A DNA stretch of 64,000 nt from Candidatus Woesearchaeota archaeon UBA489 (GCA_002505585.1 DAVM01000018.1:24717-88716), one strand, 5' to 3'. Shown: positions 19,301 to 63,925, numbered from the stretch's first letter. Notes: generated by a model from the letters alone, not told the origin. Numbers and translations: made by a program.

Positions 19301-19770
19301 GTAGGCTCAAAATCAGGATTTTTGTAAACACGATCAATATGTTCACCAGTTTCGTAATGACCATCAAGATCTAAAGAACCACGAATATCATGATCAATTA
19401 AAAAACGGTATGGGAAGCGGATGTCAGCTTCATAACAAGCAATATTTTCTTCAAGAAATAATCGTTTAGTTTTAGGAACATCAGCAGGAAGGTTAAGAGT
19501 AACTTTAGTCATCTTTTCGTCGAGGAAATTAGTGAAAGAAGAGTCTTTGAAGGAAGCAGCTTTGATTTTTTCAGCACGCTTACGATGTTTAGTTAAGATA
19601 TAGAAATAAGGCTTGAAATCATGCATAGATAAAAAGCTTTCACCATTCTCTAAACGGCCAAATAAGTAGACAACTGCTTTATCATCATCAATTCTATAAG
19701 TTGGGTAAACAATAAAACCTTTCATAAGAGGAAGAGGAAGAGGGGTTATAAAAAGGTTCTCATACTTCAA
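16324..19770 (-). CDS. polB: Family B DNA polymerase containing one intein (pol-b site)
   Basis: 1148 aa; exonuclease motifs FDIETD, motif A DFKSLYPSII, motif B K..KILMN/SFFGVMANPTFRF split by intein, motif C YGDTDSLFV; extein total ~787 aa. Confidence 0.9.
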   Translation of the reverse strand: MKYENLFITPLPLPLMKGFIVYPTYRIDDDKAVVYLFGRLENGESFLSMHDFKPYFYILTKHRKRAEKIKAASFKDSSFTNFLDEKMTKVTLNLPADVPKTKRLFLEENIACYEADIRFPYRFLIDHDIRGSLDLDGHYETGEHIDRVYKNPDFEPTDFFPKLKVLSFDIETDKDAGDLYSISLYDGSYKNVLLVKKKGKFKNAECFPSEKEVLERFQELVLELDPDVIVGWNVIDFDLDYLKKKFKEHKVPFLFGRVPWPCKLRISESFFRDSSADFPGRMVLDGIHLMKTSFIKLDDYKLNTAAKHILGDTKIFQGAGRHDEITEAYNKDPQKLVDYNLKDSILAYDVIFKSGSFDLTILRSLLTRMQLDRVNASIASFDSLYLRELQKRKLVAPSANIVDREERILGGFVMDPKPGIYDNIVIVDFKSLYPSIIRSFNIDPVSFVPKENAKLFKSSELLEAPNGALFKRKDGVLPDVIQHMWEQRDKAKKRKEKLAIYAIKILMNCFTPDTDILTDQGIKKITEIKKGDLVYSLNPKTRKTELNKVTRTFKYPYKGKVISIQSKNVDFIVTPNHRFFVKVGKKYQWFEAQELLEKATKNFWLPKHKSIKGKIIKWFDLKKKCNELAIAFRIKEEKLQKARKHSSVPNRYHLSDWLQLIGWYVSEGYIYISKEKRYPGKVSWRGVSHKIILCQKKEKTREKIIKLLKKMGLKYSSEFNGITVTNQILAEVLLAECGAGSHNKRIPNWVFELDQSILHNLFKTAMLGDGNSNGERYSSKNKDLAEDVLRLVHHLGYYGFVYEDTQKYDGEDYTMYRVQINKRKGIRPYISKYKNIREVDYEGSVYCVEVSPNHTVLAGRNTKLHFCGQSFFGVMANPTFRFHSLEMANAITHFGQLIIKKCAEEIEKKGFEVIYGDTDSLFVNVNAKDYKNALKVGKTIETEINSFFKSFVKKEYKKESFLELEFEKVYKKLFLPKARKSAEGAKKRYSGLLEKDKKDVLEFTGLEFVRRDWTEAARKFQYDLHWKVFHNKNPSKFIKEFVADLKKGKFDELLIYKKGIRKSVDSYTKTTPPHIKAARKAGIKKVGILEYVMTLDGPEAVGFQKSKMDYEHYVEKQIKPIAEAVLIFFDLTFDDVLKASKQVSLGDF
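17164..18246 (-). mobile_element. Intein with LAGLIDADG homing-endonuclease domain inserted in PolB motif B
   Basis: Residues 509-869: starts CFTPDTDIL (block A Cys after KILMN), LAGLIDADG-like blocks LIGWYVSEGYIYI and FKTAMLGDGNS, block F-like VYCVEVSPNHTVLAG, ends ...KLHFCGQ followed by +1 Ser (SFFGVM). Confidence 0.75.
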
Positions 19771-50055: not shown

Positions 50056-50130
50056 GGACCCGTAGCTCAGTTTGGATAGAGCGTTTGCCTTCTAAGCAAA
50101 AGGTCGCAGGTTCAAATCCTGTCGGGTCCG
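50056..50130 (+). tRNA. tRNA-Arg (anticodon TCT)
   Basis: GGACCCG/CGGGTCC acceptor, D-arm GCTCAGTTTGGATAGAGC, anticodon stem TTTGC/GCAAA loop CTTCTAA, T-loop GGTTCAAATCC, discriminator G, no CCA. Confidence 0.8.
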
Positions 50131-50175
50131 CTTATATCTGAAACGTTTAAATAACAACCAAAATAATGAAAAACA

Positions 50176-50802
50176 ATGGAAAAAATAACTAAAGTACTTC
50201 AAATTTTAACAATCTTCTTACTTCTAAGTTTTACTACAGCAGCACTAGAAGACACAGAAAAAGACTATGAAAGTGATTATGAACCAGTAGACATTGTAGA
50301 AACAGCAGCAGAAAAAAAAGAAAGAATGTTAGAAGCATTTGATAATTCAGAAATAGTACAAGGACAGATGACCTTTTCATTCACCTCAACCACTACTAAA
50401 GAAGAAGCAATAAAGATATTGAAAAAATATGATTTAGAATTACAACAATATGAAGTATGTAGTGGTGCACAAGACCCAGATGGAAAAGCAACAGACTTAG
50501 GTTGTGAAACAGAAGATTCTTGGAATGATATGATACAAATAGCAACAGTAACAGTACCAAAAGGAAAAGAAAAAGACTTAGCAGAAGAAATAGTAGATAA
50601 AGAAACAAACGTAGAATGGGCAGAACCAGAATTTGTTATGACAACAGATGATGGAGCAGTTGCTGTGCCAGGAGTATTAGAACCATTAGAATCAGGAGAA
50701 CCAGGCAACTACGAAAGTAATGTAGAAGATACTGATATAGATACTGGCTGGTTAGAAGGCATATCAACAGGTATATTAGATTGGTTTAAAAGCTGGTTTT
50801 AG
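50176..50802 (+). CDS. Secreted acidic hypothetical protein
   Basis: 208 aa; signal peptide ILTIFLLLSFTTAA; Asp/Glu-rich mature part. Confidence 0.5.
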   Translation: MEKITKVLQILTIFLLLSFTTAALEDTEKDYESDYEPVDIVETAAEKKERMLEAFDNSEIVQGQMTFSFTSTTTKEEAIKILKKYDLELQQYEVCSGAQDPDGKATDLGCETEDSWNDMIQIATVTVPKGKEKDLAEEIVDKETNVEWAEPEFVMTTDDGAVAVPGVLEPLESGEPGNYESNVEDTDIDTGWLEGISTGILDWFKSWF

Positions 50803-50841: not shown

Positions 50842-50914
50842 GGCACTGTGCCCAAGTGGTTAAGGGGACCGCCTGCAGAGCGGTTATGCGCAGGTTCGAA
50901 TCCTGCCAGTGCCT
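50842..50914 (+). tRNA. tRNA-Cys (anticodon GCA)
   Basis: GGCACTG/CAGTGCC acceptor, anticodon stem ACCGC/GCGGT loop CTGCAGA, T-loop GGTTCGAATCC, discriminator U (universal for tRNA-Cys). Confidence 0.8.
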
Positions 50915-50935: not shown

Positions 50936-51121
50936 ATGACAAAAGAAGAAATAGGTGTACATTTTAAGAGAGGAGAACATAAGTGTTTACAACCAGGAGA
51001 AGCATTAGCACTCTTACAAAAGCTCTACAGTTGTGGCTATCTATGTAAAGGATGTTTGCCAAGAGTGTTAAAGCACATAGAAGAGAAAGGAAAGAAGAAA
51101 GTTAATTATGTTATTGAATAA
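50936..51121 (+). CDS. Small Cys-containing hypothetical protein
   Basis: 61 aa from internal Met of ORF 50909..51121 (upstream part overlaps tRNA-Cys); CGYLCKGC motif. Confidence 0.3.
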   Translation: MTKEEIGVHFKRGEHKCLQPGEALALLQKLYSCGYLCKGCLPRVLKHIEEKGKKKVNYVIE

Positions 51122-51938
51122 GGCTTTGCAAATACTCTTTCTTTAATTGAAACCCATTTTTCTTAGCTAATCTTTGAATTGCACGATCAAACTTACTAGA
51201 ATACTGAGCAGCAATCTTCTTTCTAAAAGCAACCTCTTTAGGTAATCCTAATTCTAAAGCAACTTCCCTTAAAATAATTTTTCTTCGTTCATTATTCATC
51301 TTTAAAGAAGGATCAATTTGCATAGCATACTTTACTAACTCTTTATCTAAAAAAGGAGCAGCTAAAGTAATATTGAAATGGTTAGCAATTGGTAAATCAC
51401 GAGCGAAATCACGAACTTCCATGTCTTTTAACCCATCCCATAAACGTTCATGAATGTTAGTTAAGTCATTCCCATACTCAATGTGCCGTTTGTATCCGCC
51501 AAAGATTTCTTCAGCACCTAAACCACCAAGGACAGTAGTAATACCATCTTCTTTTGCCATTTCCAAAACTGAAAAAACAACACACCCGATACCTACATGT
51601 GTTACATCAGTAGAATTAAGTAAAGTAACAACCTTCTTGATAACTTCTTCAGCTTCATCCAAAGAAAGAATCTTAGTCTTGATAGGTAAATTAAGTTGTT
51701 GAGCAACTTGCTTAGACCAAGAAACATCATCAGAATTCGCTAAAGCAACAGAATAGAGAGTGGGAGTAGTAGCTAATAAAGCAATTAAAGCAGAATCAAC
51801 ACCACCAGAGAAAGCAATACCAGGAGAAGGATACTTCTGAATAGCTTTTTGTAATAAAGGCTTCAGAGAAGCAATAATTTTAGCTTTATCAGTAAGGAAA
51901 GGATGATCTTGTAATTCTTTACGGAGAGATTCAAACAT
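51111..51938 (-). CDS. Asparagine synthase C-terminal-domain-like PP-loop ATP pyrophosphatase (stand-alone)
   Basis: 275 aa; PP-loop IAFSGGVDSALIA (SGGxDS); no glutamine amidotransferase N-domain. Confidence 0.65.
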   Translation of the reverse strand: MFESLRKELQDHPFLTDKAKIIASLKPLLQKAIQKYPSPGIAFSGGVDSALIALLATTPTLYSVALANSDDVSWSKQVAQQLNLPIKTKILSLDEAEEVIKKVVTLLNSTDVTHVGIGCVVFSVLEMAKEDGITTVLGGLGAEEIFGGYKRHIEYGNDLTNIHERLWDGLKDMEVRDFARDLPIANHFNITLAAPFLDKELVKYAMQIDPSLKMNNERRKIILREVALELGLPKEVAFRKKIAAQYSSKFDRAIQRLAKKNGFQLKKEYLQSLIQ

Positions 51939-52002: not shown

Positions 52003-53781
52003 TTATTTTCTCTTTTTTGTAGCACTAGCTTCATAATCAGCCATTCTTTTAGCTTTCGCAGCTTTTCTGCCACGACCGCCAGTGAAAATGAGCTTTATGA
52101 AAAAGATAGCTACAATGATTAAGATAATATCTCCAATAATCCAGAAGACTTTGGAATCACTATCTCCACCAAAGAGGTTAAACCCACCATTCTTACCACT
52201 AGTTTTACCAGCAGCTTCAACAGTGAAACTTCTTGTTTCTAAAGTGTTTCCTTTGTTATCTTTTAACACAACACTACCACTGTACATTCCAGCAGCAACA
52301 TTTTCTTTAGATTTTAAGTTCAAGAAAACAGTGCTTTCTTGACCAGCATTTAAGAACACTTTTTTACTTGAAGCTGTTTCAGCAAAATCTTCAGTGTTTT
52401 CAAGACTAACTATGTATTCAACAGTTGCATCTTCTTTGTTCACTACCTTTACTGCAAGACTTGCAAGACTATCTTTAGCTAAATTAATCTTTTCTGAACT
52501 AATCACTAAAGCATTTCTTGTAGTTGTAGGTGTTTTAGTTTTTTTACCATTGCTTGCAGGAGCACCTTCTGAACAAAGATTGTCCACAGTGTACGTTGCA
52601 GTATCACTTAATTTGTTGTTATCATAGAACGTTTGTATTTGGAATACAGAAGGTCCTTGCTTGAGTTCTCTTGGACTAACAGGTACTAAGAAAGTTTTCT
52701 CATCTCTGTCGTCTTCATCCAATTCAAATCCAGCAATTCTTTCTTGGTAACCAAAGAGTTTAGAAGTTACTTCTATAGCAACTCTATCTTCATTGGAACG
52801 TCCTAAGTTGATGAAATCAACACGAAGATTGATTGTAGTATCATCACAACTTAAAGAGGTTGGATTTGCATTAATACTCTTAATGAGTAAGTCGTGATTT
52901 TTACGTTCAACTTCTACATCGAAAGAGATCATTTCACCATGTAGTGCGCCGTTTTCGTCTTCACCACTAACTGAAAGTTCACAGTTACTAGTTTCATCTT
53001 TAGCGTCTTCTTCTACATCAAAGTTAATTGATTCTGTTTCTTCGTCTTCAGTACCGATGTCACCGATTTCTTCAGTTTTATCGTCGAAGTCAAAATTATC
53101 TTCTTCATCACAAGATATTTCTAAATCAACATCATTGATGTCTAAATTAGTACGATCATCAAATTCGTTTGAAGCTTCTACTTCTATTTCAATTCTATCT
53201 CCTGGGACGATGTTTTCTAAATTATCATCATCATCTATGCTTTGTTTTCCTTTACCATTAATAATAGCATCACTGTCTGAGATTTCTAATTGATTTTCTC
53301 TTTGCATGAATACTTGTAAATCAGCACTTATTGCAGTTGTACTAGAACTATCTTTTAATTTGATAGTTGCAACAATTAAAGCTTGTTTTTCAAAAGTAGT
53401 ATCATCAACAGCATCTAACTGCTCAGGAATTCTAGCTTTTAATTGTACATCTTTTGTAGAAGATGCAGGTATACTAACTGAATCACCAACAATAGTAAAT
53501 TGTAAATCACTAGTTTTAAAACCAGATGCAGTACTTACTTCAATAGTATCAACTGTCACAGCAGTTGTATCTGTATTCTTTACCTTAAGAGTTACTGTAT
53601 CAAAGATATCATGTTTTTCAGATTCATCATGTTCAGGGTTACTTGCTTCTTGACCGTCATCTCCGAAAGTAGGAGTATCTTTATTGAAAGATTCTGTAAT
53701 TTCTAATGCTGCGCTTGCTGTATTCATTGCAAATGCAACTGATAAAATGATTAATATATTCCATAACATAAATTTTTTCAT
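52003..53781 (-). CDS. Cell-surface protein paralog 1 (signal peptide, acidic D/E-rich module, C-terminal FWII-motif/TM/basic tail)
   Basis: Start at MKKFMLWNILIILSVAFAMNTASA (Met 22 of listed ORF); ~60% identity over ~500 aa to the C-terminal half of the 1471-aa protein (RIPEQLDAVDD, VFMQRENQLEI, CDEEDNFDFDDKTEEIGD, FDVEVERKNHDL); ends KVFWIIGDIILIIVAIFFIKLIFTGGRGRKAAKAKR... Confidence 0.7.
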   Translation of the reverse strand: MKKFMLWNILIILSVAFAMNTASAALEITESFNKDTPTFGDDGQEASNPEHDESEKHDIFDTVTLKVKNTDTTAVTVDTIEVSTASGFKTSDLQFTIVGDSVSIPASSTKDVQLKARIPEQLDAVDDTTFEKQALIVATIKLKDSSSTTAISADLQVFMQRENQLEISDSDAIINGKGKQSIDDDDNLENIVPGDRIEIEVEASNEFDDRTNLDINDVDLEISCDEEDNFDFDDKTEEIGDIGTEDEETESINFDVEEDAKDETSNCELSVSGEDENGALHGEMISFDVEVERKNHDLLIKSINANPTSLSCDDTTINLRVDFINLGRSNEDRVAIEVTSKLFGYQERIAGFELDEDDRDEKTFLVPVSPRELKQGPSVFQIQTFYDNNKLSDTATYTVDNLCSEGAPASNGKKTKTPTTTRNALVISSEKINLAKDSLASLAVKVVNKEDATVEYIVSLENTEDFAETASSKKVFLNAGQESTVFLNLKSKENVAAGMYSGSVVLKDNKGNTLETRSFTVEAAGKTSGKNGGFNLFGGDSDSKVFWIIGDIILIIVAIFFIKLIFTGGRGRKAAKAKRMADYEASATKKRK

Positions 53782-53892
53782 ACTGTTTGACCCCCGGTAT
53801 ACAACACAAGTATCCTGTGTTGCTATTGCATAGTTACAACCCATATATAAAGCTTGTGGTCTAACCTATATAATCAAGCCTAAATATGAGTT

Positions 53893-55500
53893 TTAGCGCT
53901 TTAGCGCTGTTATCACAACCTTTATACACAAAATTACAATCGCTAGTAAAAAAACATTAATTACAATCCAAATACTAGTAGGAATATCACTAATTAAAGG
54001 AAAATTAGTACTAGAAGGTTTACTATCTTCTTTAGGACTAATTTGCACTTGCACATTAGAAGAAGCAAGTACTTTAGCACCCTCCTTCACAAAAATAGTA
54101 GCACTATACTTACCAGATAAAGCAGACTCTCTAACAACAAGATCTAAGAAAACAGTAGTTTTAGATAAAGGATTAAGAGTAATAGTTTTAGTAGAAGCAT
54201 CAGCAAAATCTTCAATATTAGCAACACTAATAGCAAAAACACCTTTATTGAATTGATTATTAGTAACAACAACAGGAAGAGAAATAACTTTTCCTTGTTG
54301 AGAAACAAAATTATCTTCAACAGGTTTTATAGTAACAGCATCAGTTGCTCCACGGAATTGAAGTTGTATACGACAACTAGAAACTTCTAAAGGCAAACGT
54401 AAAGAATCAGAACCACCATCAAAATTAACTTTGACACTTAGATCATATTTTTTAGGCTTAGCATCAGCAGGCAATTTTAGTTGAAATTGACGAATAGCAC
54501 TATTTTCTTCAGCAGAATTAAAACTTTCTAAATCAAAACGTTCAGATTTTTCATTAATACGTAACTCTTTATTTGTAACAGAAACTGTAACATCATCATT
54601 ATCATCATCACCAATATTCATAACACGAATAGAAGCAGAGACAATATCTCCACAAGCCGCTACAGAAGGGAATAAGCGTGATTCAGACTCATCAATAATA
54701 ATATCATCATCTTCTAATTGAATATCAACCTTTTGTTTAGCTTGCACACAATTTAATTCTTCAAACTCATCATCAAAAGCTTTAATGAACAAAGTTAATT
54801 CATCATCTTCATCAAAATCTTCAGACTCTAAAGGAACACGTAAACGTAAATCAAAAGTTTCATCCTCATCTTCATCAATACGTTTAGTAGCTGAAGAAGT
54901 ATCAGCAATATTGCGATTATCATTAAACAAGAAAGCTTCAACTTGAGTACGAATTTCATTTTGTCCTTCATTGCTTACTTCAACTTCAATAGGAATTACA
55001 TCACCAGGTTTGAACTCATCAGAATTATCAGGCTCATCAACATCAATTTTCAAAGCAGTCCCAACTTGACCAAAGTCACAAATATCAAGATCAATATCTA
55101 TAGTAAATTTAACAGTATCTTTAGCAGTACTATTAGTTGTAGAATCTTTAACAGTTAAAGTTCCACCAAAACGTTCAAAACTAATCTTTGCATCAGGACT
55201 AACAGTAACATCAATTTTCTTAGAAGCATTTAGTGATAAAGTAGGAGCTGAAGGAGAAAAAGATAAAGTAATCTTTTCACCACGACTATCAGTCAAATCT
55301 AACTGAGAAATATCAAAATCTAGAGTAATAGGAGTAGTACCAGTATTTTGGACATTAAAAGAGACAATTTTATCTTTATTAGGAGCTACAGAAACACTTA
55401 CAGTATCTTCAAGAATATTTAGAGAAGGTACAGCAGATACAGCAGCTAGAGTAGTAATGAATAAGAATAAAGCTACAATCCAACTTTCTTTGATGCGCAT
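53893..55500 (-). CDS. Cell-surface protein paralog 2 (signal peptide, acidic module, C-terminal SIWIVIN-TM-KR)
   Basis: 535 aa; signal MRIKESWIVALFLFITTLAAVSA; diverged copy of the acidic module (ICDFGQVGTALKIDVDEPDNSDEFKPGDVIPIEVEVSNE); ends PTSIWIVINVFLLAIVILCIKVVITALKR. Confidence 0.7.
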   Translation of the reverse strand: MRIKESWIVALFLFITTLAAVSAVPSLNILEDTVSVSVAPNKDKIVSFNVQNTGTTPITLDFDISQLDLTDSRGEKITLSFSPSAPTLSLNASKKIDVTVSPDAKISFERFGGTLTVKDSTTNSTAKDTVKFTIDIDLDICDFGQVGTALKIDVDEPDNSDEFKPGDVIPIEVEVSNEGQNEIRTQVEAFLFNDNRNIADTSSATKRIDEDEDETFDLRLRVPLESEDFDEDDELTLFIKAFDDEFEELNCVQAKQKVDIQLEDDDIIIDESESRLFPSVAACGDIVSASIRVMNIGDDDNDDVTVSVTNKELRINEKSERFDLESFNSAEENSAIRQFQLKLPADAKPKKYDLSVKVNFDGGSDSLRLPLEVSSCRIQLQFRGATDAVTIKPVEDNFVSQQGKVISLPVVVTNNQFNKGVFAISVANIEDFADASTKTITLNPLSKTTVFLDLVVRESALSGKYSATIFVKEGAKVLASSNVQVQISPKEDSKPSSTNFPLISDIPTSIWIVINVFLLAIVILCIKVVITALKR

Positions 55501-55576
55501 TGTTTGAAAACTACTCCATACATTTATTGTTATTCAAGAGTGGTAATAACCCTATATAAAGGTTTTGGTTAAAAAC

Positions 55577-58500
55577 CTAATACTTTCGAATAACAAACTT
55601 ATCCAAAAAGAAAATTAAAAGAATAATAATAACAAAGTTCACAATAATCCAGAAAGCAGTAGAACTGGAGCCAGAACTTTTCTTACCATCAATAAGAACA
55701 TTCACAGCCTCAGAAGCAATAACAGCACCATTAGATCTAACAAGAACAGAAACACTCTGCTTCCTAGGAGGAGCATCCTCTAAAACTTTCAAGTTCAAGA
55801 AAATAGTAGAAGATTGACCAGGATTCAAAAACACTTGCTTCCTAGAAGAAGACTCAGCAAAATCACCAGTATTAGCCAACTCCACAACAAACTCTTCAGG
55901 AACATCAGCAGGATTAGTTAAACGAACAGGAAGAGAAACAAACTCACCACGTTGCACATCTAAAGAAGACTGCCCAACATCTAAAACAACAGCACTCTTC
56001 TTCACAACTTGAGGACCTTTAGTAGCAATAGATTTCCTAGCACCACACTCATTAGTAACTTGTAATACTTCAGCACTACCAGTTTTAGTATTATCATAAA
56101 AAGTCTTAATTTGCACAGCCAAAGCACCAGCTTCAAGATCTTGAGGGACAGGAATAATAAAAGTAAAATCCTCAGTATCATCTTCATCCAACTCAAAAGA
56201 AGGAATTCTTTGTTGGAAACCCAAACTCTTACTAACAATTTCAACAACAGCCTCATCTTCATTAGACTTCCCTAAATTACGAACAGTAGTTATCAAAGTA
56301 AGAGACTCAGTCTGACAAGTAACCACACTAGGATTAATAGAACTAGCTTCAATTTGTAAATCATGACTCTTCCGTTCAACTTCAATAGTAAAAGCTAAAG
56401 ACTCACCATGACGAGCACCATTTTCATCAACACCAAGAACCATAAGATCACAAGTAATATCTTCATCCTCAGCATCCTCTTCAACATCAAACAGTAAAGA
56501 CTCAATTTCTTCATCTTCAGTACCAACATCACCAATCTCTTCAGTCTTATCATCAAAATCAAGATTATCTTCATTATCACACTCAATAGACAGATCAACA
56601 TCTTCAACATCAACATTCTCTTCATCATCAAACTTATTCTCAACCTCAACAACTAACTCAATACGATTATTAGGCTTAATCTTTTTGAGATCATCACCAT
56701 CATCAAGACTCTTCCCACCCTTATCATTCACAGAAGCATCAATATCATTAATGTCCAACTCATTAGCACGCTGCATGAATACTTGGAAAGACTTCTTTAA
56801 AGGAGCATTTAAAGAATCTTTAGCCTCAAGAGAAATAGAAGCAACAATGAAAGCAACAACTTCACCCTCATCATCAACAGCATCTAACTGCTCAGGAACA
56901 CGAGCACGCAAAGTAATAGAACCAGAAGCTTGAGAAGCTAAAGAGTTAGGAGAACTAACTAAAGAAATATTCAAATCTTTATCAGAAAAACCATTAACAG
57001 GAGAAACAACTATCTTGAAATCAGATAAAGACAAAGGACCACCATTCTTAATAGATAAGTCAGCAGTTAAGAAAACATTTTCATCTTTTTCTTTGTCACT
57101 CAAAGGATTACTAGCCTTTTGTTTTTCGTCACCAAATAAAGGATTAATTTTAGAAAATTGATCAACAATAATAATAGCACCAGCACCAAGCTCACCAACT
57201 TCCACATCATACTTTTGCATTGCAGTTGCACCAATCTTATCTTTAACAACAACTTCAACAGCATGTTTCCCTAATTGAGAAAGATTAGGAATCCAAGAAA
57301 TTTGAGCAGAAGTATTACTAATTTTGGAAAGAGTCATATTAGCAGGGAAAGTTGTTAGAGAAAAATTAAGTTCATCACCAAATTGCAAATCAGGATCAGA
57401 AGCAATTACCGTATAAGCATAAGGAACATTTACAGTAGCCTTAGTAACAGGAGTAGAAGTAATAGAAGGTTTGTCATTAGTGTTAGCTACCTTAATAGTG
57501 AAGCTCTTTTTATCAGAAGCACCAACAAGATCAGTAACAGTAAGAGTTACGAAAAGTTCTCCAACATCAGCATTAGTAGGCGTGAAGGAAACAGTTGCAG
57601 CAGAAGCATTCTTTTTAGTAATAGTTATTTTAGGAGTGTTAGCACTGAAAGTTAAGACATCATTAAATTGTAAGTCAGGATCAGAAGCTGTGACATCAAA
57701 TTCTAATTTAGTATCTTGAGTAGCAGATTTATTAGCAATTGCATCTAATACAGGATTACGATTAACATTAGTCACAGTCACTTTGAAAGAGACAGAACTT
57801 GATTTGTTAGTTGCATCAGTAGCAGTGAAAGTAATGTTATGGACTCCACTATCTCCAAATGAAGGAGTGAAAGCAAAAGTACTAATTAAAGTACTATCAT
57901 TAGGTTGTTCAGATTTTCCAACACTCTTATTCTTCACAGACCAAGCAATAATCTTAATGTGATCACTATCAGGATCAGTCACATTTACTTCAAATTCTAA
58001 AGTTTCGTTTTCTTTAATTGAAGGAGTTAAAGTACTAGGTTTGAGTACAGTAATAATAGGAGGGTTAAAGAAAGAAGTGGTGAAAGAGGAAAGATTACTA
58101 GAAACATTTACTTTGCCATCAGTTGCAACAACTTTCCAGGAATAAGTTTGTAAGTCCTTAAGATTAACAGTTGTAGTAGTGGAGGAAGTTGTAGTTAACA
58201 AAGCTAAATTAGCACTAGTATTTTTGAGGAATACAAAATAACTAACAGTATCATTCACATCAGGATCAATAGAAGCAGTCCAACTTAGAAGTACAGAAGG
58301 GTCATTAACAATAGAGTTATGCACAGGACTAATTAATTGAGGAGAGGAAGGAGGATCATTAACATTAGTAACAGTTAAAGTGAAAGGCTGGAGATCGCTC
58401 CCATTAAATTTGTCAATAACTTTAACTTTAACATTATGAGCACCAACTTGATTAGGTTGAGGCACCCAAGCAATAACACCAGTAGAAGGATTAATACCCA

Positions 58501-59992
58501 TACGTTCAGGAGCTTCAACTAAACTAAAAGTAAGTTTATCTCCTAAAGGAAGATCAGGATCATCAGCAGTAACAGTATAGACATAAGATTCATTTTGTTT
58601 AGCAATTGTAATAGGAGTAGAATTAATCTTAGGAGCATCATTCACATTAGAAACATTTAGAATAAAGTTTTGTTCAGTAGAAGCATTAAAGCTATCAGTT
58701 ACTTTAATACTAACATTTGTAAGCATTACTTGAGTATTATTAGGAGTCCAAGTTACTTTACCTGTAGGAGTTATACTCATACCACTAGGAGCAAGGGCTA
58801 ACTCAAAAGTAAAAGAATCATTTTCCACATCAAAAGCAATGACATCATAAGTATATTTCTCATCTTGTTTAGCAGAAAGATTAGGAGAAGAATTAATTCT
58901 AGGAGCATCATTCACAGGAGTAATAGTAACCTTAGCAACTTGTGAAGCCTGAGCTAAAGAAGGATCTTGCACAATAAAACTAACATTACGTGATCCAAAG
59001 AAATCATTATCAGGAGCAAAAGCAGCAACACTAGTCTTATTAATTAAAATAGTAAGGTTAGCAACAGGAACAACTAAAAATTTCAAAGAATCATTATCAG
59101 GATCAGAAGCATACAAAGAAAGATCTACAAATCCAAGAGTGTCCTCAGAGAAGTTTATAAGAGGAATAGGATTAAAAACAGGGTCACGATTTACGTGAAG
59201 CACAGTAAGAATAATCTCTTCAGTATCAGAAAATTGACCATCAGAAACGTTGAAAGTTATAGTATACTCTCCATCATCATCAAAAGTAGGAGTCCAACCA
59301 AAAGCACCGGAAGAAGTGTTGAAAGTGAAAGGAGACGGAAGGACAGAAGCAGCATTAGTGCTGAAAGTTACAATATCCTTATTAGGATCAGAAGCATTTA
59401 GTCGGATGGATAAAACTTGGTTTTCATTTACAGTTTTATTCCCAATAAACTCAAGAGTAGGAGGATGATTATTTCTTACCCCAGGAGAACCACTCTTTAA
59501 TTCGCTTTGTACAAATGCAGAACTAGAAGGAAGGACTCTTTCCAAAGAGAAATCTTTTGTAGTTTTTTGGAAAGCAGTAAGATTAACAGTATCCAAAACA
59601 GAACCAGTATTATTCCTAAAAGCAATATAATCATTATGAGTAAGTCCATTACCCAACTTAGCATCTACTTCATAAATAGAGACATCACCAGGAATAGCAA
59701 CAATACTCTCATTATTTACAATTACTGCAAATTTGCTAGATGCATTAAATACTTTACTTGTTAAAGTGTCATTACTATTACTATCTGCAATACTAAAACC
59801 AGATAAATTTACAGCACCATTAGGCATGAAAATTTCAACAAACTCTTTATCAGCAGCAGGAGTAGAAGTTTCATACATTACTTCATTAATAATAATAGAT
59901 TGTGCAAAAACACTAGTAGCTCCAACACTAAAAAAGAGTAAACTCAACAAAAACACTAGATTTCTTTTAGATTTACAGCCCCCAAAATCCAT
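55577..59992 (-). CDS. Large cell-surface protein paralog 3: lamin-tail domain, multiple cadherin-like repeats, acidic module, C-terminal AFWIIVN-TM-RKY
   Basis: 1471 aa; signal peptide; LTD-like IIINEVMYETSTPAADKEFVEIFMPNGAVNLSGFSIAD; repeated ..TNVNDAP.I / VTNVNRNPV / NTNDKP cadherin-like calcium motifs; C-terminal 500 aa paralogous to 52003..53781; ends TAFWIIVNFVIIILLIFFLDKFVIRKY. Confidence 0.75.
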   Translation of the reverse strand: MDFGGCKSKRNLVFLLSLLFFSVGATSVFAQSIIINEVMYETSTPAADKEFVEIFMPNGAVNLSGFSIADSNSNDTLTSKVFNASSKFAVIVNNESIVAIPGDVSIYEVDAKLGNGLTHNDYIAFRNNTGSVLDTVNLTAFQKTTKDFSLERVLPSSSAFVQSELKSGSPGVRNNHPPTLEFIGNKTVNENQVLSIRLNASDPNKDIVTFSTNAASVLPSPFTFNTSSGAFGWTPTFDDDGEYTITFNVSDGQFSDTEEIILTVLHVNRDPVFNPIPLINFSEDTLGFVDLSLYASDPDNDSLKFLVVPVANLTILINKTSVAAFAPDNDFFGSRNVSFIVQDPSLAQASQVAKVTITPVNDAPRINSSPNLSAKQDEKYTYDVIAFDVENDSFTFELALAPSGMSITPTGKVTWTPNNTQVMLTNVSIKVTDSFNASTEQNFILNVSNVNDAPKINSTPITIAKQNESYVYTVTADDPDLPLGDKLTFSLVEAPERMGINPSTGVIAWVPQPNQVGAHNVKVKVIDKFNGSDLQPFTLTVTNVNDPPSSPQLISPVHNSIVNDPSVLLSWTASIDPDVNDTVSYFVFLKNTSANLALLTTTSSTTTTVNLKDLQTYSWKVVATDGKVNVSSNLSSFTTSFFNPPIITVLKPSTLTPSIKENETLEFEVNVTDPDSDHIKIIAWSVKNKSVGKSEQPNDSTLISTFAFTPSFGDSGVHNITFTATDATNKSSSVSFKVTVTNVNRNPVLDAIANKSATQDTKLEFDVTASDPDLQFNDVLTFSANTPKITITKKNASAATVSFTPTNADVGELFVTLTVTDLVGASDKKSFTIKVANTNDKPSITSTPVTKATVNVPYAYTVIASDPDLQFGDELNFSLTTFPANMTLSKISNTSAQISWIPNLSQLGKHAVEVVVKDKIGATAMQKYDVEVGELGAGAIIIVDQFSKINPLFGDEKQKASNPLSDKEKDENVFLTADLSIKNGGPLSLSDFKIVVSPVNGFSDKDLNISLVSSPNSLASQASGSITLRARVPEQLDAVDDEGEVVAFIVASISLEAKDSLNAPLKKSFQVFMQRANELDINDIDASVNDKGGKSLDDGDDLKKIKPNNRIELVVEVENKFDDEENVDVEDVDLSIECDNEDNLDFDDKTEEIGDVGTEDEEIESLLFDVEEDAEDEDITCDLMVLGVDENGARHGESLAFTIEVERKSHDLQIEASSINPSVVTCQTESLTLITTVRNLGKSNEDEAVVEIVSKSLGFQQRIPSFELDEDDTEDFTFIIPVPQDLEAGALAVQIKTFYDNTKTGSAEVLQVTNECGARKSIATKGPQVVKKSAVVLDVGQSSLDVQRGEFVSLPVRLTNPADVPEEFVVELANTGDFAESSSRKQVFLNPGQSSTIFLNLKVLEDAPPRKQSVSVLVRSNGAVIASEAVNVLIDGKKSSGSSSTAFWIIVNFVIIILLIFFLDKFVIRKY

Positions 59993-60249
59993 GATACAAC
60001 TCCTGAGTGGTTAAACATTTATAAGCATTATTGTTATCTACACTATACAATATGCCTATCAGAACTCAACAAAAACCTAAATGAACATAAAAAGAAACAG
60101 ACCCTCCCAAAGAAGGGTTCTGGTTTCATTTTGCAAAGTTTGGTGCAAACGGAGGTCTCGTCTTGACGAAGAATTACTATAACTATTAGTTAGACAATAT
60201 ATAAACATACTGCAAAAAATAGTGAAAAATAGTGAAAAAAAGTACAAAA

Positions 60250-61836
60250 TTATTCTTTACTAACAGCCTCAGCACCCTTATCAGTAAGTTCAATAAGTTT
60301 ATTCCTACCCTGCTTCACAATACGCAACAACCCAAGATGATACAACTCATGCACACGCTTCTGAGTAGTAGGAGCAGTAATATTAAACTTCTGACCAATA
60401 TCCTTAAAAGAAACTTGCTCACCCAAATGCCTACGAGACTCAATGAAACTCAAAACACTCACTAAATCACGAGGCACATCAACACCAGAAGAACCATTAT
60501 CCAATTCCTGCATCTCCTTACTCAAAAAAGACAACTCCTTAGCCTTCATCAAAGAAGGATCAATAGGAACAAGCAAAACAGCCCTAGTCAACATAATCTT
60601 ATCATTAATCTTAACCATAAACTTCATCACCTCATCAAAACCATGCTTAGCAATCAAATAATCCACACGATCAAGCAAAATAATAGCACTCTTACTCTTC
60701 ACCAAAAAATCCGTAATCAACTTCCCAATAATCAACAAATCAGAAGAAGAAAAAATATTACTCTCCTTAGCATCAGACAACCACAAAATAGGAGTCTTCT
60801 CCAACTTATACTGCTTCCTAATAAGAAGAGGATTAGTCCTACTTAAACACAATCCCTGAGAACCATGCATAACCTTATCCACAAACAACTCAAAAGCCCT
60901 CTTAGAATCAACACCCTTCAACACATAACTAGTACCAAAACTCAAAGAAGCAAACTTTTCAGGAGAAGAAGAAGACTTTTCAGCAGAAGGCATAAGTTGC
61001 ATAAACCTCTTTAATCGAGGACTCTCTTCAACCATATTACGAAGACTAACAACCATCTTATTGAAAGTATTAGCCAAATGATTCAACTCATCATTAGACT
61101 TAGATTCTTTTACTTTTACATCAAAATTACCCTCACTCACCTTAGTAGCAGCAGAAGCAAGCTCATTCACAGGACGCACAATAAGTTTAGTGAAGAAAAA
61201 GCCAATAGCAATAGCAAGAAACAAACCAATAACAGTAATAAAACCCAAAATAGCACGAGTATTACGCACAGCAGCAACAGATTCTTTGTTAGCAGCAGCA
61301 TTCAAAGCACTAACATCAACAGCAATCTCTTGCAAAATCTCAATAGCATCATCAGAATCATCATCCACTTGTTTTAACAAAGCAGCCTTAACTTCATTAT
61401 ACCTAGTCTTTTCAGCATCATTACTTTCAGCAATCTCAGCCTTATGAGTAGAAATAACTTTTTCAGACTTATCTTTGAAACCATCATACTTTTTAGAAGC
61501 AAGATTTAAACGATCAATAACCTCTTCATCTTCAATAAGCTTTCTTAAACTCCGTTCAGACTCATCAAAAACATCATTTTGCTTATCAAACAAACGACGC
61601 AAATCTGATAGATCAGCACTATTAAACTCAGAAGCATAAGCATGAATTAACTTATTAGATTGCACTAAAGAGATGGTTAACCCATTCACTAAAGCAACAG
61701 TAGGAGAAGTAACTTGAGTAACTAACTCAACACGCTCACTAATACTGCCAGTAGCAATCATACCAATGGCTCCAGTTAACACTACAAAAAAGCCAACCAA
61801 GAAAAAACCTAGCATAATTTTATGAGTAATTTTCAC
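60250..61836 (-). CDS. Membrane-bound one-component regulator: sensor loop, HAMP, DUF835, C-terminal winged HTH
   Basis: 528 aa; TM1 IMLGFFLVGFFVVLTGAIGMIA, ~170-aa external region, TM2 ILGFITVIGLFLAIAIGFFF, HAMP (RPVNELASAATKVSEGNFDVKV...NHLANTFNKMVVSLR), DUF835-like GLCLSRTNP...ILWLSD...AIILLDRVDYLI...AVLLVPIDP, wHTH SFKDIGQKFNITAPTTQKRVHELYHLGLLR. Confidence 0.65.
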   Translation of the reverse strand: MKITHKIMLGFFLVGFFVVLTGAIGMIATGSISERVELVTQVTSPTVALVNGLTISLVQSNKLIHAYASEFNSADLSDLRRLFDKQNDVFDESERSLRKLIEDEEVIDRLNLASKKYDGFKDKSEKVISTHKAEIAESNDAEKTRYNEVKAALLKQVDDDSDDAIEILQEIAVDVSALNAAANKESVAAVRNTRAILGFITVIGLFLAIAIGFFFTKLIVRPVNELASAATKVSEGNFDVKVKESKSNDELNHLANTFNKMVVSLRNMVEESPRLKRFMQLMPSAEKSSSSPEKFASLSFGTSYVLKGVDSKRAFELFVDKVMHGSQGLCLSRTNPLLIRKQYKLEKTPILWLSDAKESNIFSSSDLLIIGKLITDFLVKSKSAIILLDRVDYLIAKHGFDEVMKFMVKINDKIMLTRAVLLVPIDPSLMKAKELSFLSKEMQELDNGSSGVDVPRDLVSVLSFIESRRHLGEQVSFKDIGQKFNITAPTTQKRVHELYHLGLLRIVKQGRNKLIELTDKGAEAVSKE

Positions 61837-61867
61837 TATCTTTCACTATATTTTATCAAGTGTTTAA

Positions 61868-62455
61868 ATGTTTTATGAAAGTAGAGTAGTTGCAAGAAGA
61901 GAAATAAAACCTTTTATACCAGCAAACCATTCTAAAACTATGAAAGAATTGAAGTGGATACTTCTCAGATGGATACTAGCAGGACTAGTCACAACAAGTT
62001 ATTCCTTAATTTATGCAATCATAGGACCAATAACTCTACAGATTAGCCAAGGCATACTTAATCTTTTCACAGAAACCATATTGCGAGGCAATTTGTTGTA
62101 TGTAGGAGGGAAAACATTAGAATTCATACCATCATGCGCAGCAATAAGTGCCTATATATTATTAGGAATACTGATCTTATTAACAAGAGGAATAAACATC
62201 AAAACAAGAATAGTGATGGCACTCTACGGAAGTGTTTTAATACTAGCAGCAAACATCTTAAGAATAGAAGTGTTAATCTATGTACTCTTACAATGGGGAA
62301 AGAATTACTTCGATACATTGCATCTCTTCATATGGCAAATAGTATCAAGTATGTATGTAGCATTAGTTTGGGTGTATCTAACATGGAGATTCAAAGTAAA
62401 AGGAATACCATTGTATTCAGATATGCGATATGTTTGGAAGAAATTTAGGCGCTAG
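61868..62455 (+). CDS. Small polytopic membrane protein with exosortase/archaeosortase-like Cys...N-x-x-R arrangement (alternative start 61940)
   Basis: 195 aa, ~5 TM helices; Cys90 in TM (EFIPSCAAISAYIL), 42 residues later AANILRIEV (N-x-x-R), later Arg in TWRFK; spacing mirrors the catalytic Cys/Arg of archaeosortase ArtA (C173/R214); divergent from the regulator gene. Confidence 0.35.
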   Translation: MFYESRVVARREIKPFIPANHSKTMKELKWILLRWILAGLVTTSYSLIYAIIGPITLQISQGILNLFTETILRGNLLYVGGKTLEFIPSCAAISAYILLGILILLTRGINIKTRIVMALYGSVLILAANILRIEVLIYVLLQWGKNYFDTLHLFIWQIVSSMYVALVWVYLTWRFKVKGIPLYSDMRYVWKKFRR

Positions 62456-63038
62456 AATTCTTCTTATGATTTTTGTACAAGAAAAAACCACCAACTAATA
62501 ACACTATAGAAATAACAATTATTAAAATCTCATGCTGAGCAATAGTATCCATAACAACAGACCCAAATTGAGCAACAAGGAAAGCGAGTAAGAAATAACG
62601 TAAACCACGACCTAAAATTGAAGCAACAACAAATTTCTTGAAATCAATATAAAAAACACCAGCAGCAATAGTAAAAATTTTGTAAGGAATAGGAGTAAAG
62701 CCAGAAATAAACACAGCCCAAGCACCAAAACGATCAAACAAACGATGTACTCGATCAATCTTACTATGACTAAAAAAACGCTCTAAAATAACACGCTCAC
62801 CAGCCAAACCAATACCATACCCAAATATACCACCAAGAACACTACCAACAGTACAAACAAGAGCTAACAACAACCATAATTTAGGAGTGGAGAGAGTGAA
62901 AATAACTAACAAAATATCAGGAGGAATAGGGAAAAAAGAAGATTCAATAAAAGCAAGAAAAAACAACCCCCACATTCCTAAAGGTTCAAAAGTACGTTGT
63001 GTCCATTCAGTTAATTGTACAACAATGCTCATAAACAA
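62445..63038 (-). CDS. DedA/TVP38-family membrane protein
   Basis: 197 aa; FIESSFFPIPPD signature of DedA/SNARE-associated family. Confidence 0.8.
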   Translation of the reverse strand: MFMSIVVQLTEWTQRTFEPLGMWGLFFLAFIESSFFPIPPDILLVIFTLSTPKLWLLLALVCTVGSVLGGIFGYGIGLAGERVILERFFSHSKIDRVHRLFDRFGAWAVFISGFTPIPYKIFTIAAGVFYIDFKKFVVASILGRGLRYFLLAFLVAQFGSVVMDTIAQHEILIIVISIVLLVGGFFLYKNHKKNSSA

Positions 63039-63043
63039 TCACC

Positions 63044-63925
63044 TTACTTCTTTTGTTGAAAAACTAACAAATCTTGAGTAGTTAATTTTTTCCTCTTTTT
63101 TAGTTTCTCTTCAACCAAAACAGCCTTTTCCTGCATTAATCTATCATCAATCTTCTTCTTTTGCTCAAAACGAACCTTTTTTTGCTCTTGCAATTTACTA
63201 ACAACAACATTCACTTCAGACAATTCCTTCTTTAACTCACTATTCTTCTTAGAAAACCTCTTCTTAGCATCCCAAAAATGTTTCTGAGCATCATCATGAG
63301 AAAGTTTCTGTGCATTAATCTCCTTAGAAAGAGCAATGAACTGCTTATAATTATCCTTCTTTTTCTTAAACTCATCCTTTAATTTATTATGAAACTCATT
63401 AGCCTTTTTCTTAACCCCATCAATCTCTTTAGAAAGAATGTTTAATTTTTTTGTAACATCATACACACCCTTATTCTCTTTAATTTTTTTCTTTAAATCC
63501 TTAATTTGTACCATAACCTTTTTTTCTTGAGAAAGAGATAAAGCCTCAGTCTCAATCTTCATATCTAATTTATCAACCATCTCCTGCATTCTTTGAGGAT
63601 TACCTTTACCACTCTGCTTTTTAGATAACTTCAAACGTTCCTTATTTAATTCCTTAGCTTGCTTCACTAACTCTTGACACTTCTTATTCCACTTATCACG
63701 CTCAGCCTTTAATTTATTTTGAGTAGAATTAGTACGATCTAAATCTCTCTTTACTTCACGAATCTTTTTAATAGAAGGAGATAAAGAATCTTGCAATTTT
63801 TTCTTCTTAGCAAACCAATCTTCTTTTTCTTTATCCAAAAGATTCAAATCATCACGAACAGACCTAATTTTAGTCTTCAGATTAGACAGATTGCTACCTA
63901 CTACATTCTTTCCTTTGCTATCCAT
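63044..63925 (-). CDS. Lys/Glu-rich coiled-coil protein (archaeal coiled-coil protein, COG1340-like)
   Basis: 293 aa; continuous heptad-like K/E/L-rich sequence; SD-less. Confidence 0.45.
   Translation of the reverse strand: MDSKGKNVVGSNLSNLKTKIRSVRDDLNLLDKEKEDWFAKKKKLQDSLSPSIKKIREVKRDLDRTNSTQNKLKAERDKWNKKCQELVKQAKELNKERLKLSKKQSGKGNPQRMQEMVDKLDMKIETEALSLSQEKKVMVQIKDLKKKIKENKGVYDVTKKLNILSKEIDGVKKKANEFHNKLKDEFKKKKDNYKQFIALSKEINAQKLSHDDAQKHFWDAKKRFSKKNSELKKELSEVNVVVSKLQEQKKVRFEQKKKIDDRLMQEKAVLVEEKLKKRKKLTTQDLLVFQQKK

What the first reader, a model, noticed from the sequence alone, without database searches (positions are those of the whole stretch)
52003..62455. Candidate novel archaeosortase-like sorting system: three paralogous surface proteins sharing an 'FWII'-motif/TM/basic-tail C-terminus, next to a small Cys...NxxR membrane protein and a HAMP-DUF835-wHTH regulator
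Three consecutive minus-strand genes (613, 535 and 1471 aa) all carry an N-terminal signal peptide. All end with the same tripartite arrangement: a short conserved motif ((V/S/A)(F/I)WI(I/V)), one hydrophobic helix and a Lys/Arg-rich tail (KVFWIIGD...RGRKAAKAKR; SIWIVIN...ITALKR; AFWIIVN...FVIRKY). This is the architecture of exosortase/archaeosortase substrates (PEP-CTERM, PGF-CTERM and similar), but the motif is not one of the named ones. Immediately upstream is a divergent pair. One is a membrane one-component regulator (HAMP + DUF835 + wHTH). The other is a 195-aa polytopic membrane protein with an intramembrane Cys and, 42 residues later, an A-N-x-x-R motif. That spacing matches the catalytic Cys/Arg of archaeosortase A, though the protein is about 100 aa shorter than known archaeosortases. 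Together they could be a minimal sortase-like transpeptidase with a new C-terminal sorting signal, plus its substrates and a regulator.
Basis: partly seen in the sequence, partly recalled or inferred. Interest (0 to 1): 0.75.

Follow-up and report, generated by a model that had tools for sequence, protein, structure and literature searches.

The report
Pacearchaeosortase with its S-layer-like substrates

Summary
Three consecutive minus-strand genes encode signal-peptide proteins that end in (F/I)WI(I/V), one hydrophobic helix and a basic tail. Upstream lie a HAMP-DUF835 membrane regulator and, divergently, a small polytopic membrane protein with an invariant Cys, NxxR and His.

The small protein scores 115.8 bits (cutoff 80) on NCBIfam NF033505 "pacearchaeosortase". 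It also passes the exosortase/archaeosortase signature TIGR04178 and Pfam PF09721. Its true length is about 171 aa, not 195.

All three surface proteins carry the NF033506 "PACE-CTERM-PROT, putative S-layer protein" module. NCBI already names homologues "pacearchaeosortase" and "putative S-layer protein". Small exosortase-family enzymes of 150-170 aa (ArtD, ArtE, XrtH) are also already known.

In every other locus with enough upstream flank, a sortase homologue sits near one or two NF033506 proteins with the same kind of tail. This is a dedicated enzyme-target arrangement. The tail was found only on this one protein family, and its Trp is not universal. Cleavage is therefore inferred, not shown.

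The regulator sits divergent to the sortase in 6 of 13 distinct sortase loci. A PAP2 phosphatase takes that place in 6 others. No paper describing the system was found.

The parts
61940..62455 (+). Pacearchaeosortase gene (171 aa; the ORF is open from 61868, but Met25 is the likely start).
   Evidence: NF033505 115.8 bits against a cutoff of 80; TIGR04178 44.2 against 23; PF09721 29.3 against 25.7. P0001 is 100% identical and 171 aa. The AF2 model is a helix bundle with a short beta hairpin (pLDDT 69).
62135..62137 (+). Codon of Cys66, the only Cys in the protein and the predicted nucleophile.
   Evidence: Invariant in 19 homologues and in all locus-derived homologues. Codon coordinates.
62252..62263 (+). 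Asn105-x-x-Arg108 (ANILR), the predicted catalytic Arg.
   Evidence: N105 and R108 are invariant.
62321..62323 (+). Codon of His128, the only His in the protein and the predicted third triad residue.
   Evidence: Invariant.
61837..61939 (.). Divergent intergenic region between regulator and sortase. It holds a TATA-like CCTTTTATAC at 61910-61919. A tandem TTTCACTAT x2 lies at 61830-61848.
   Evidence: Read directly from the sequence. Any function is inferred only.
60250..61836 (-). Membrane one-component regulator: 4HB_MCP-like sensor, TM, HAMP, DUF835 (inactivated KaiC-like) and a probable wHTH.
   Evidence: PF00672 52.8 bits, PF05763 101.5 bits, PF12729 27.2 bits; wHTH hits are sub-threshold only. 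DUF835 is classed as iKaiC in PMC5847659. Orthologues sit next to the sortase in L003, L008, L009, L015 and L017.
55577..59992 (-). 1471-aa surface protein: signal peptide, about 900 aa of He_PIG/Big_9/cadherin-like repeats, then the NF033506 module (55577-57190).
   Evidence: Pfam repeats. The C-terminal 537 aa score 116.8 bits on NF033506, cutoff 110. A 1480-aa orthologue is present in L014.
55580..55660 (-). C-terminal tail TAFWIIVNFVIIILLIFFLDKFVIRKY, the putative sorting signal.
53893..55500 (-). 535-aa NF033506 (PACE-CTERM-PROT) putative S-layer protein.
   Evidence: 183.2 bits against a cutoff of 110. Homologues are named "putative S-layer protein" by NCBI.
53896..53979 (-). C-terminal tail TSIWIVINVFLLAIVILCIKVVITALKR, the putative sorting signal.
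52003..53781 (-). 592-aa (or 588-aa) NF033506-related surface protein. The ORF is open to 53844.
   Evidence: 82.2 bits on NF033506 (E 3e-23, below the cutoff of 110). It is 44% identical to the module of the 1471-aa protein.
52006..52152 (-). C-terminal tail KVFWIIGDIILIIVAIFFIKLIFTGGRGRKAAKAKR..., the putative sorting signal with a long basic tail.
62445..63038 (-). VTT/DedA-family membrane protein (UptA-like), convergent with the sortase and overlapping it by 11 nt. It is a possible accessory, not a proven part.
   Evidence: PF09335 62.3 bits; UptA 42 bits, far below its cutoff. It is adjacent to the sortase in the window, L001, L003, L004, L010 and L016.

Best explanation
This is a dedicated archaeosortase sorting locus of the catalogued pacearchaeosortase / PACE-CTERM type, in a low-GC DPANN-like archaeon.

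Proposed mechanism:
1. The three acidic surface proteins are exported through Sec using their N-terminal signal peptides.
2. They are first held in the membrane by the C-terminal helix, with the basic tail in the cytoplasm.
3. The 171-aa polytopic enzyme has Cys66 and His128 at the outer ends of two helices and Arg108 within a third. It recognises the start of the substrate helix (Phi-W-I-I/V-x-N/D) inside the membrane.
4. It cleaves there through a thioacyl intermediate on Cys66.
5. By analogy with ArtA of Haloferax volcanii, it hands the new C-terminus to a membrane lipid. The protein, probably an S-layer subunit, then stays lipid-anchored without its helix.

The 1471-aa paralogue would display a long glycosylated adhesin-like arm on the same anchor module. 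The HAMP-DUF835-wHTH protein probably regulates transcription of this envelope locus in the lineages that have it.

Shown here: family membership of the enzyme, conservation of the triad, membership of the targets, the tripartite tails, and the enzyme-target neighbourhood.

Inferred: topology, cleavage, cleavage site, lipid acceptor, S-layer role and regulation.
For: Enzyme:
- NF033505 115.8 bits against 80, TIGR04178 44.2 against 23, PF09721 29.3 against 25.7.
- C66, N105, R108 and H128 are invariant in 19 homologues and in 13 locus-derived homologues down to 35-39% identity.
- C66 and H128 are the only Cys and His in the protein.
- Homologues are named pacearchaeosortase by NCBI.
- The family holds 274 clusters (50% identity) at E<=1e-10, nearly all 165-195 aa.

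Targets:
- NF033506 scores are 183.2, 116.8 and 82.2 bits.
- Signal peptides and tails are as described.
- W511 and I512 are 2 of only 13 invariant columns in a 10-sequence family alignment.
- The 22 tail columns show 43% pairwise identity against 30% for the body, ranking 26th of 470 windows.

Linkage:
- In L001, L003, L004, L008, L010, L011, L015, L016 and L017 a sortase homologue lies within about 0.4-6 kb of one or two NF033506 proteins with the same kind of tail.
- In the most divergent case (L016, a Pacearchaeota MAG) the order is target, sortase, DedA on one strand, while the rest of the synteny is different.
- This matches Haft's criterion for dedicated sorting systems (bioRxiv 10.1101/2023.06.07.544157).

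Mechanistic analogy: ArtA, reviewed in PMC6098224.
Against: - No experimental evidence exists for any member of this family. No paper mentions it.
- The tail was found only on NF033506-family proteins, so it cannot be separated from a family-specific membrane anchor by distribution.
- The signature is weak. Trp is replaced in L015, where the sortase is present and both tails read LVILN, and also in P0028. It is absent in distant homologues P0035, P0037 and P0040.
- A Trp at a helix start is also normal for plain TM anchors.
- Much of the neighbourhood (L1-L10-P1 / DUF7121 / sortase / S-layer / AsnS-like / LeuRS) is conserved synteny among related genomes, which weakens adjacency as evidence of function.
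- L014 has three paralogues and no sortase within 21 kb.
- The AF2 model has only moderate confidence (pLDDT 69). No solved exosortase structure exists to compare it with.
Confidence: 0.7

Rival explanations
1. The tail is a permanent membrane anchor. The shared C-terminus is simply the transmembrane anchor of one paralogous surface-protein family. The sortase neighbour processes something else or nothing here, and the adjacency reflects conserved gene order among related small genomes.
For: - The tail occurs only on NF033506-family bodies in the window and in about 250 kb of related loci.
- The Trp is not universal even where the sortase is present (L015).
- There is long conserved synteny around the locus.
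- L014 lacks a sortase within 21 kb.
Against: - The enzyme keeps an intact Cys/Arg/His triad across a large, divergent family.
- No other protein with a C-terminal helix plus basic tail lies near it in any locus.
- Target-sortase adjacency survives in L016, where the surrounding synteny does not.
- The tail is more conserved than the protein body, including a polar N/D inside the helix. That is unexpected for a passive anchor.
Confidence: 0.18
2. Cleavage without re-anchoring. The sortase acts as an intramembrane endopeptidase that releases the surface proteins from the membrane. They would then be shed, or join a lattice held by other contacts, rather than being transferred to a lipid.
For: - Whether exosortase-family enzymes perform one-step transpeptidation is unresolved even for ArtA (Haft preprint).
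- DPANN archaea often lack lipid synthesis (general knowledge, not tested here).
- The NF033506 module is strongly acidic (pI 4.4), so it could be held by cations.
Against: - The Cys/Arg/His triad is the same as in true transpeptidase sortases.
- In H. volcanii, ArtA-dependent cleavage is coupled to lipid attachment (PMC6098224).
- Lipid-handling genes (PAP2, DedA) recur beside the sortase.
Confidence: 0.1
3. One reading: a previously unrecognised minimal sortase-like transpeptidase with a new, unnamed sorting signal.
For: - The motif is not PEP, PGF, VPXXXP or any other published signal.
- No paper describes it.
Against: - The enzyme passes the curated cutoff of NF033505, and two of the three targets pass that of NF033506.
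- NCBI annotation already applies both names.
- Equally small exosortase-family enzymes are already modelled.
Confidence: 0.02

Closest known systems
Pacearchaeosortase (NCBIfam NF033505) with PACE-CTERM-PROT putative S-layer protein (NF033506)
   Same: - The enzyme is above the curated cutoff over the full model length (4-166 of 167).
- The target module is matched to the end of its model, which includes the tail.
- Enzyme and target are neighbours, as in a bona fide Pacearchaeota MAG (L016: sortase 204.5 bits, target named by NCBI).
   Different: - The window enzyme is a divergent member (115.8 bits against 204.5 for L016).
- There are three tandem targets instead of one. One scores below the curated cutoff and one is fused to about 900 aa of adhesin-like repeats.
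- A HAMP-DUF835 regulator lies between targets and enzyme.
ArtA / PGF-CTERM system of Haloferax volcanii (the only archaeosortase studied experimentally)
   Same: - Same superfamily and the same Cys/Arg/His triad. Cys-to-Arg spacing is 42 residues here, against 41 in ArtA (C173/R214, recalled from the literature, not tested here).
- The main substrate is an S-layer protein.
- The signal is tripartite, with the motif abutting the helix.
   Different: - ArtA is about 300 aa with more helices.
- Its motif is PGF.
- It has many unrelated substrates per genome.
- Its cleavage and lipid attachment are shown experimentally.
- No ArtA model hit appeared at E<=1.
Small exosortase-family enzymes: ArtE (TIGR04124), ArtD (TIGR04175), XrtH (TIGR04177), XrtM, XrtX
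   Same: A similar minimal size (150-168 model positions) and the same core signature domain. Weak cross-hits score 20-29 bits.
   Different: All score far below their own cutoffs. Their cognate signals (for example VPXXXP-CTERM for ArtE) are different.
Dedicated one-enzyme/one-target sorting systems (for example JDVT-CTERM with MrtJ; Haft 2023 preprint)
   Same: - Enzyme and target are encoded side by side.
- There are few targets per genome.
- Conserved residues lie inside the target's TM helix.
   Different: The enzyme fold and chemistry are unrelated (Rce1/CPBP-type glutamic proteases, with an invariant Cys in the signal).

Membership tests
Exosortase/archaeosortase superfamily | Match to the signature domain model (TIGR04178) and Pfam PF09721 above their curated cutoffs | tested here: met
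   TIGR04178 44.2 bits against 23; PF09721 29.3 against 25.7.
Exosortase/archaeosortase superfamily | Invariant Cys, Arg and His (putative catalytic triad) | tested here: met
   C66, R108 and H128 are invariant in A1 (19 sequences) and in 13 locus-derived homologues. They include the only Cys and the only His in the protein.
Exosortase/archaeosortase superfamily | Polytopic integral membrane protein | tested here: met
   The AF2 model has five long helices plus a beta hairpin. Hydrophobic segments are visible in the sequence. The topology itself is inferred from the positive-inside rule.
Exosortase/archaeosortase superfamily | Endopeptidase or transpeptidase activity on the C-terminal signal | not testable with these tools
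   Needs biochemistry or proteomics.
Pacearchaeosortase (NF033505) | Score at or above the curated cutoff (80 bits), full length about 167 aa | tested here: met
   115.8 bits, model positions 4-166 of 167. The likely true length is 171 aa.
Pacearchaeosortase (NF033505) | Encoded near an NF033506 target protein | tested here: met
   Seen in the window and in 9 other distinct loci.
PACE-CTERM-PROT putative S-layer protein (NF033506) | Score at or above the curated cutoff (110 bits): the 535-aa protein | tested here: met
   183.2 bits.
PACE-CTERM-PROT putative S-layer protein (NF033506) | Score at or above the curated cutoff: the C-terminal module of the 1471-aa protein | tested here: met
   116.8 bits when residues 935-1471 are scanned alone. 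No hit was listed for the whole protein.
PACE-CTERM-PROT putative S-layer protein (NF033506) | Score at or above the curated cutoff: the 592-aa protein | tested here: not met
   82.2 bits against 110. It is clearly homologous (E 3e-23; 44% identical to the 1471-aa module), so it is a diverged relative rather than a cutoff-passing member.
PACE-CTERM-PROT putative S-layer protein (NF033506) | Actually forms an S-layer | not testable with these tools
   There is no solved relative (only a weak hit to 5ow4). The name is a curator's inference.
Tripartite C-terminal sorting signal (criteria of Haft) | Criteria 1, 4, 5 and 6: at the C-terminus, a hydrophobic helix, a basic cluster, and an N-terminal signal peptide | tested here: met
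Tripartite C-terminal sorting signal (criteria of Haft) | [quoted passage not shown] | tested here: inconclusive
   W-I-(I/V), with N/D at +4 or +5, is invariant or nearly so among the 10 closest family members. W is lost in L015, P0028 and P0035, and the motif is absent in P0037 and P0040.
Tripartite C-terminal sorting signal (criteria of Haft) | Criterion 7: carried by proteins that are otherwise unrelated | tested here: not met
   Every carrier found contains the NF033506 module. The tail-only database search gave nothing.
Tripartite C-terminal sorting signal (criteria of Haft) | [quoted passage not shown] | tested here: met
   Nine other distinct loci besides the window show it. L014 is the one locus with targets but no sortase within 21 kb.
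Archaeosortase A (ArtA) / PGF-CTERM | Match to an ArtA model and a PGF motif on the targets | tested here: not met
   No ArtA model appears among the hits at E<=1. There is no PGF in the tails.

The most novel reading that the evidence does not exclude
The pacearchaeosortase locus may be more than enzyme plus target. It could be a regulated envelope module. In that reading, a membrane HAMP-iKaiC(DUF835)-wHTH one-component sensor, divergently transcribed with the sortase, tunes anchoring or shedding of the surface layer. A PAP2 phosphatase and a DedA flippase would supply or recycle the lipid acceptor. For DPANN archaea that scavenge lipids from hosts, this would link surface-layer attachment to sensing of the host or envelope state. 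None of these accessory links is described anywhere I could search.
Probability: 0.12. Interest if true: 0.55.

Novelty: already known. Interest (0 to 1): 0.25.

Why it matters
As it stands, this confirms that a careful reading of raw sequence can recover a real sorting system. It adds little new, because enzyme and target families are already curated in NCBIfam and applied automatically to genomes.

Three modest additions come from this work:
- Some lineages carry two or three tandem targets, including a giant glycosylation-rich adhesin fusion.
- A HAMP-DUF835 regulator, a PAP2 phosphatase and a DedA protein recur next to the enzyme.

The system has never been tested experimentally, and DPANN surface layers are essentially unstudied. 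The locus would therefore be a reasonable entry point for such work, but it is not a surprise to a specialist.

Tried and rejected
1. A tail-only profile (A3: 14 tails, 45 columns) searched against the 5.8-billion-protein collection, to find the signal on unrelated proteins. Of 1284 word-sharing candidates, none scored E<=10. The profile is too short for that database, so the result is uninformative.
3. Foldseek against afdb50, which would have held ArtA/XrtA models, was not available on the machine.
4. The genome-contig scan returned only 2 loci and the metagenome scan only 6, because the back-translated patterns were narrow. Context therefore came mainly from exact-protein look-ups.
5. Literature searches found nothing on this system: "pacearchaeosortase" gave 0 papers. 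Archaeosortase combined with DPANN, Pacearchaeota, Woesearchaeota or Nanoarchaeota gave nothing relevant.
6. The PDB search with the S-layer profile gave only a weak hit to an uncharacterised protein (5ow4, E 0.0013).
7. The wHTH of the regulator has only sub-threshold support, so I treat it as probable, not shown.
8. I considered and rejected the idea that the Asn-synthase-like neighbour is the PEP-CTERM system amidotransferase. It scores 47 bits against a cutoff of 817.

Full report
**What is there.** The ORF list confirms the five genes at the stated coordinates. Three are consecutive minus-strand genes of 613, 535 and 1471 aa. Then comes a 528-aa minus-strand gene, and a divergent plus-strand ORF of 195 aa.

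The window is uniformly low in GC, about 33%. It otherwise carries archaeal housekeeping genes: a family-B DNA polymerase with an intein, AlaRS, ProRS, LeuRS, GatB, M1 and M17 peptidases, and three tRNAs.

A scan of all ORFs in the 64 kb found the tail ([FI]WI[IV], a hydrophobic helix, then K/R) on these three proteins only. Each has a plain Sec-type signal peptide that can be read from the sequence.

The three proteins are paralogues over their whole C-terminal ~530 aa, not just the tail. The first protein is 44% identical to residues 936-1463 of the 1471-aa protein (E 3e-129). The 535-aa protein is 23-27% identical to the other two.

Gene starts need correction:
- All 22 homologues of the small protein are 166-178 aa. 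One is 100% identical and 171 aa. A TATA-like CCTTTTATAC sits about 21 bp before the ATG at 61940. The enzyme is therefore 171 aa, not 195.
- Gene callers start the first surface protein at 588 aa and the regulator at 521 aa.

**What the small protein is.** It scores 115.8 bits on NCBIfam NF033505 "pacearchaeosortase" (cutoff 80) over nearly the whole model. It scores 44.2 bits on the exosortase/archaeosortase signature TIGR04178 (cutoff 23) and 29.3 bits on Pfam PF09721 (cutoff 25.7).

In a 19-sequence alignment, Cys66, Asn105, Arg108 and His128 are invariant. They stay invariant in homologues recovered from 13 loci, down to 35-39% identity. Cys66 and His128 are the only Cys and His in the protein.

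NCBI already names homologues "pacearchaeosortase". An exhaustive profile search finds 274 clusters (50% identity) at E<=1e-10, almost all 165-195 aa. This is a sizeable, established family.

The claim that the protein is unusually small does not hold. The curated models for ArtD, ArtE, XrtH and XrtM are 150-158 positions long.

**What the surface proteins are.** All three contain the NCBIfam NF033506 module, "PACE-CTERM-PROT, putative S-layer protein".

| Protein | NF033506 score | Cutoff 110 |
|---|---|---|
| 535 aa | 183.2 bits | passed |
| 1471 aa, last 537 aa scanned alone | 116.8 bits | passed |
| 592 aa | 82.2 bits (E 3e-23) | not passed |

Homologues are named "putative S-layer protein" by NCBI.

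The 1471-aa protein adds about 900 aa of He_PIG, Big_9 and cadherin-like repeats in front of the module. A 1480-aa orthologue with the same layout exists in L014.

**Is the enzyme linked to these proteins?** I approached this from both sides, looking up sortase homologues and S-layer homologues. I then mapped all loci with local HMMs.

Every locus with enough flank on the right side pairs a sortase homologue with one or two NF033506 proteins about 0.4-6 kb away. These loci are L001, L003, L004, L008, L010, L011, L015, L016 and L017. The exception is L014, which has three paralogues but no sortase within 21 kb.

Much of the wider gene order is simply conserved synteny among related small genomes. 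That order runs ribosomal L1-L10-P1, a DUF7121-like coiled-coil protein, DedA, sortase, S-layer genes, an Asn-synthase-like gene and LeuRS. This weakens adjacency as an argument.

L016 is a genuine Pacearchaeota MAG whose sortase scores 204.5 bits. There the surrounding genes are different, yet target, sortase and DedA are co-directional and contiguous. This fits the criterion Haft gives for dedicated sorting systems: enzyme and target as nearby genes, replacing the "many unrelated carriers" criteria.

**How good is the signal?** In a 10-sequence family alignment with 36% mean column identity, W and the following I are 2 of only 13 invariant columns. The 22 columns from the motif onward show 43% pairwise identity against 30% for the body. 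They rank 26th of 470 windows. A polar N or D four to five residues into the helix is also conserved, which is unusual for a passive anchor.

The signal is nonetheless loose:
- In L015, where the sortase is present, both tails read LVILN without Trp.
- P0028 has LLVIGN.
- Distant homologues P0035, P0037 and P0040 lack the motif.
- Every carrier found has the NF033506 body.
- A tail-only profile search of the large protein collection returned nothing usable.

Processing of the tail is therefore a well-founded inference from family membership, triad conservation and dedicated neighbourhood. It is not demonstrated. The rival reading, a family-specific permanent anchor, keeps some weight.

**Mechanism proposed.**
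1. Sec export through the N-terminal signal peptides.
2. Transient anchoring by the C-terminal helix, with the basic tail in the cytoplasm.
3. Recognition of the start of the helix within the membrane by the enzyme. Under the positive-inside rule, its Cys66 and His128 lie at the outer ends of helices and Arg108 lies within a helix.
4. Cleavage through a thioacyl intermediate.
5. Transfer to a lipid acceptor, by analogy with ArtA of Haloferax volcanii. For ArtA, triad-dependent cleavage and coupled lipid attachment of the S-layer glycoprotein are established (review PMC6098224).

Whether transfer happens in one step is unresolved even for ArtA. Simple release is therefore a live alternative.

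**The regulator and other neighbours.** The 528-aa protein has a borderline 4HB_MCP-type sensor, HAMP (52.8 bits) and DUF835 (101.5 bits). Galperin and colleagues class DUF835 as an inactivated KaiC-like output domain (PMC5847659). The C-terminal wHTH is supported only by sub-threshold hits.

The regulator lies divergent to the sortase in 6 of 13 distinct sortase loci: the window, L003, L008, L009, L015 and L017. In 6 others (L001, L004, L010, L011, L012, L013) a PAP2 phosphatase resembling undecaprenyl-diphosphatases takes that position. L008 and L009 have both.

A DedA/VTT protein (UptA-like) adjoins the sortase in 6 loci. These recurrences suggest an envelope-biogenesis neighbourhood. They do not show that the regulator controls the sortase.

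**Comparison and verdict.** The locus is a member of the catalogued pacearchaeosortase / PACE-CTERM system. It works like ArtA/PGF-CTERM but is not ArtA: no ArtA model hit appeared and there is no PGF motif. It resembles other dedicated sorting systems in organisation.

The novelty claim fails. No publication on this family was found. The knowledge resides in curated models and automatic annotation, and the biochemistry is untested.

No exosortase structure is in the PDB and the AlphaFold-database library was unavailable.

I rate interest as low to moderate.

Noticed in passing
window 55577-59992, 53893-55500 and 52003-53781 (minus strand): N-glycosylation sequons are spread very unevenly. The adhesin-like N-terminal 935 aa of the 1471-aa protein have 41 N-x-S/T (about 18 expected from composition). 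Its NF033506 module has 1 (about 4 expected), the 592-aa paralogue 0 (about 6 expected) and the 535-aa paralogue 2 (about 5 expected). The lattice-type module looks sequon-depleted and the arm sequon-enriched.
   Followed up: partly
window 62445-63038 (-); L001 2975-3511, L004 6983-7519, L008 6782-7360, L011 5222-5797 and others: A DedA/VTT protein (UptA-like) and a PAP2 phosphatase (undecaprenyl-diphosphatase-like, SepP 43.7 bits) recur right next to the sortase gene across loci. Together they look like a polyprenyl-phosphate recycling pair, or possibly suppliers of a lipid acceptor. The window has DedA but no PAP2.
   Followed up: partly
window 51111-51938 (-): A 275-aa protein has only the synthetase (C-terminal) domain of asparagine synthase and no glutaminase domain. 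It is syntenic just downstream of the S-layer genes in the window, L001, L004, L010, L014, L015 and L017. Its resemblance to the XrtA/PEP-CTERM system amidotransferase is weak (47 bits against a cutoff of 817).
   Followed up: partly
window 61830-61848 and 61910-61919: A tandem TTTCACTAT x2 straddles the regulator's GTG start. A TATA-like CCTTTTATAC lies about 21 bp upstream of the sortase ATG at 61940. These are possible operator and promoter elements of the divergent pair.
   Followed up: no
window 16324-19770 (-): The family-B DNA polymerase is interrupted by an intein with a LAGLIDADG homing-endonuclease domain (Intein_splicing 44.9 bits, residues 516-857).
   Followed up: no
L017 3626-4162 (-): A clear pacearchaeosortase ORF (114.5 bits on NF033505) was not called as a gene in the source annotation of this 387-kb JGI contig. 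Counts of the family taken from predicted proteomes will therefore be underestimates.
   Followed up: yes
L015 6086-9594 (marine Tara contig): Both NF033506 paralogues next to a bona fide sortase (96.8 bits) have tails without the Trp (TNLVILNLL and LPLVILNIAL). The signature residue of the signal varies by lineage. The enzyme was not examined for matching changes.
   Followed up: partly
window 50176-50802 (+), between tRNA-Arg (50056-50131) and tRNA-Cys (50842-50914): A 208-aa acidic protein with a signal peptide has no match in Pfam or NCBIfam at E<=1. It is flanked by two tRNA genes.
   Followed up: no
window 63044-63925 (-): A 293-aa, very Lys/Glu-rich coiled-coil protein is orthologous to proteins that hit Pfam DUF7121 in related loci. 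It is conserved between the DedA or sortase genes and the ribosomal P1-L10-L1 genes in all related loci. It has only weak SMC/Rad50-like coiled-coil hits.
   Followed up: no
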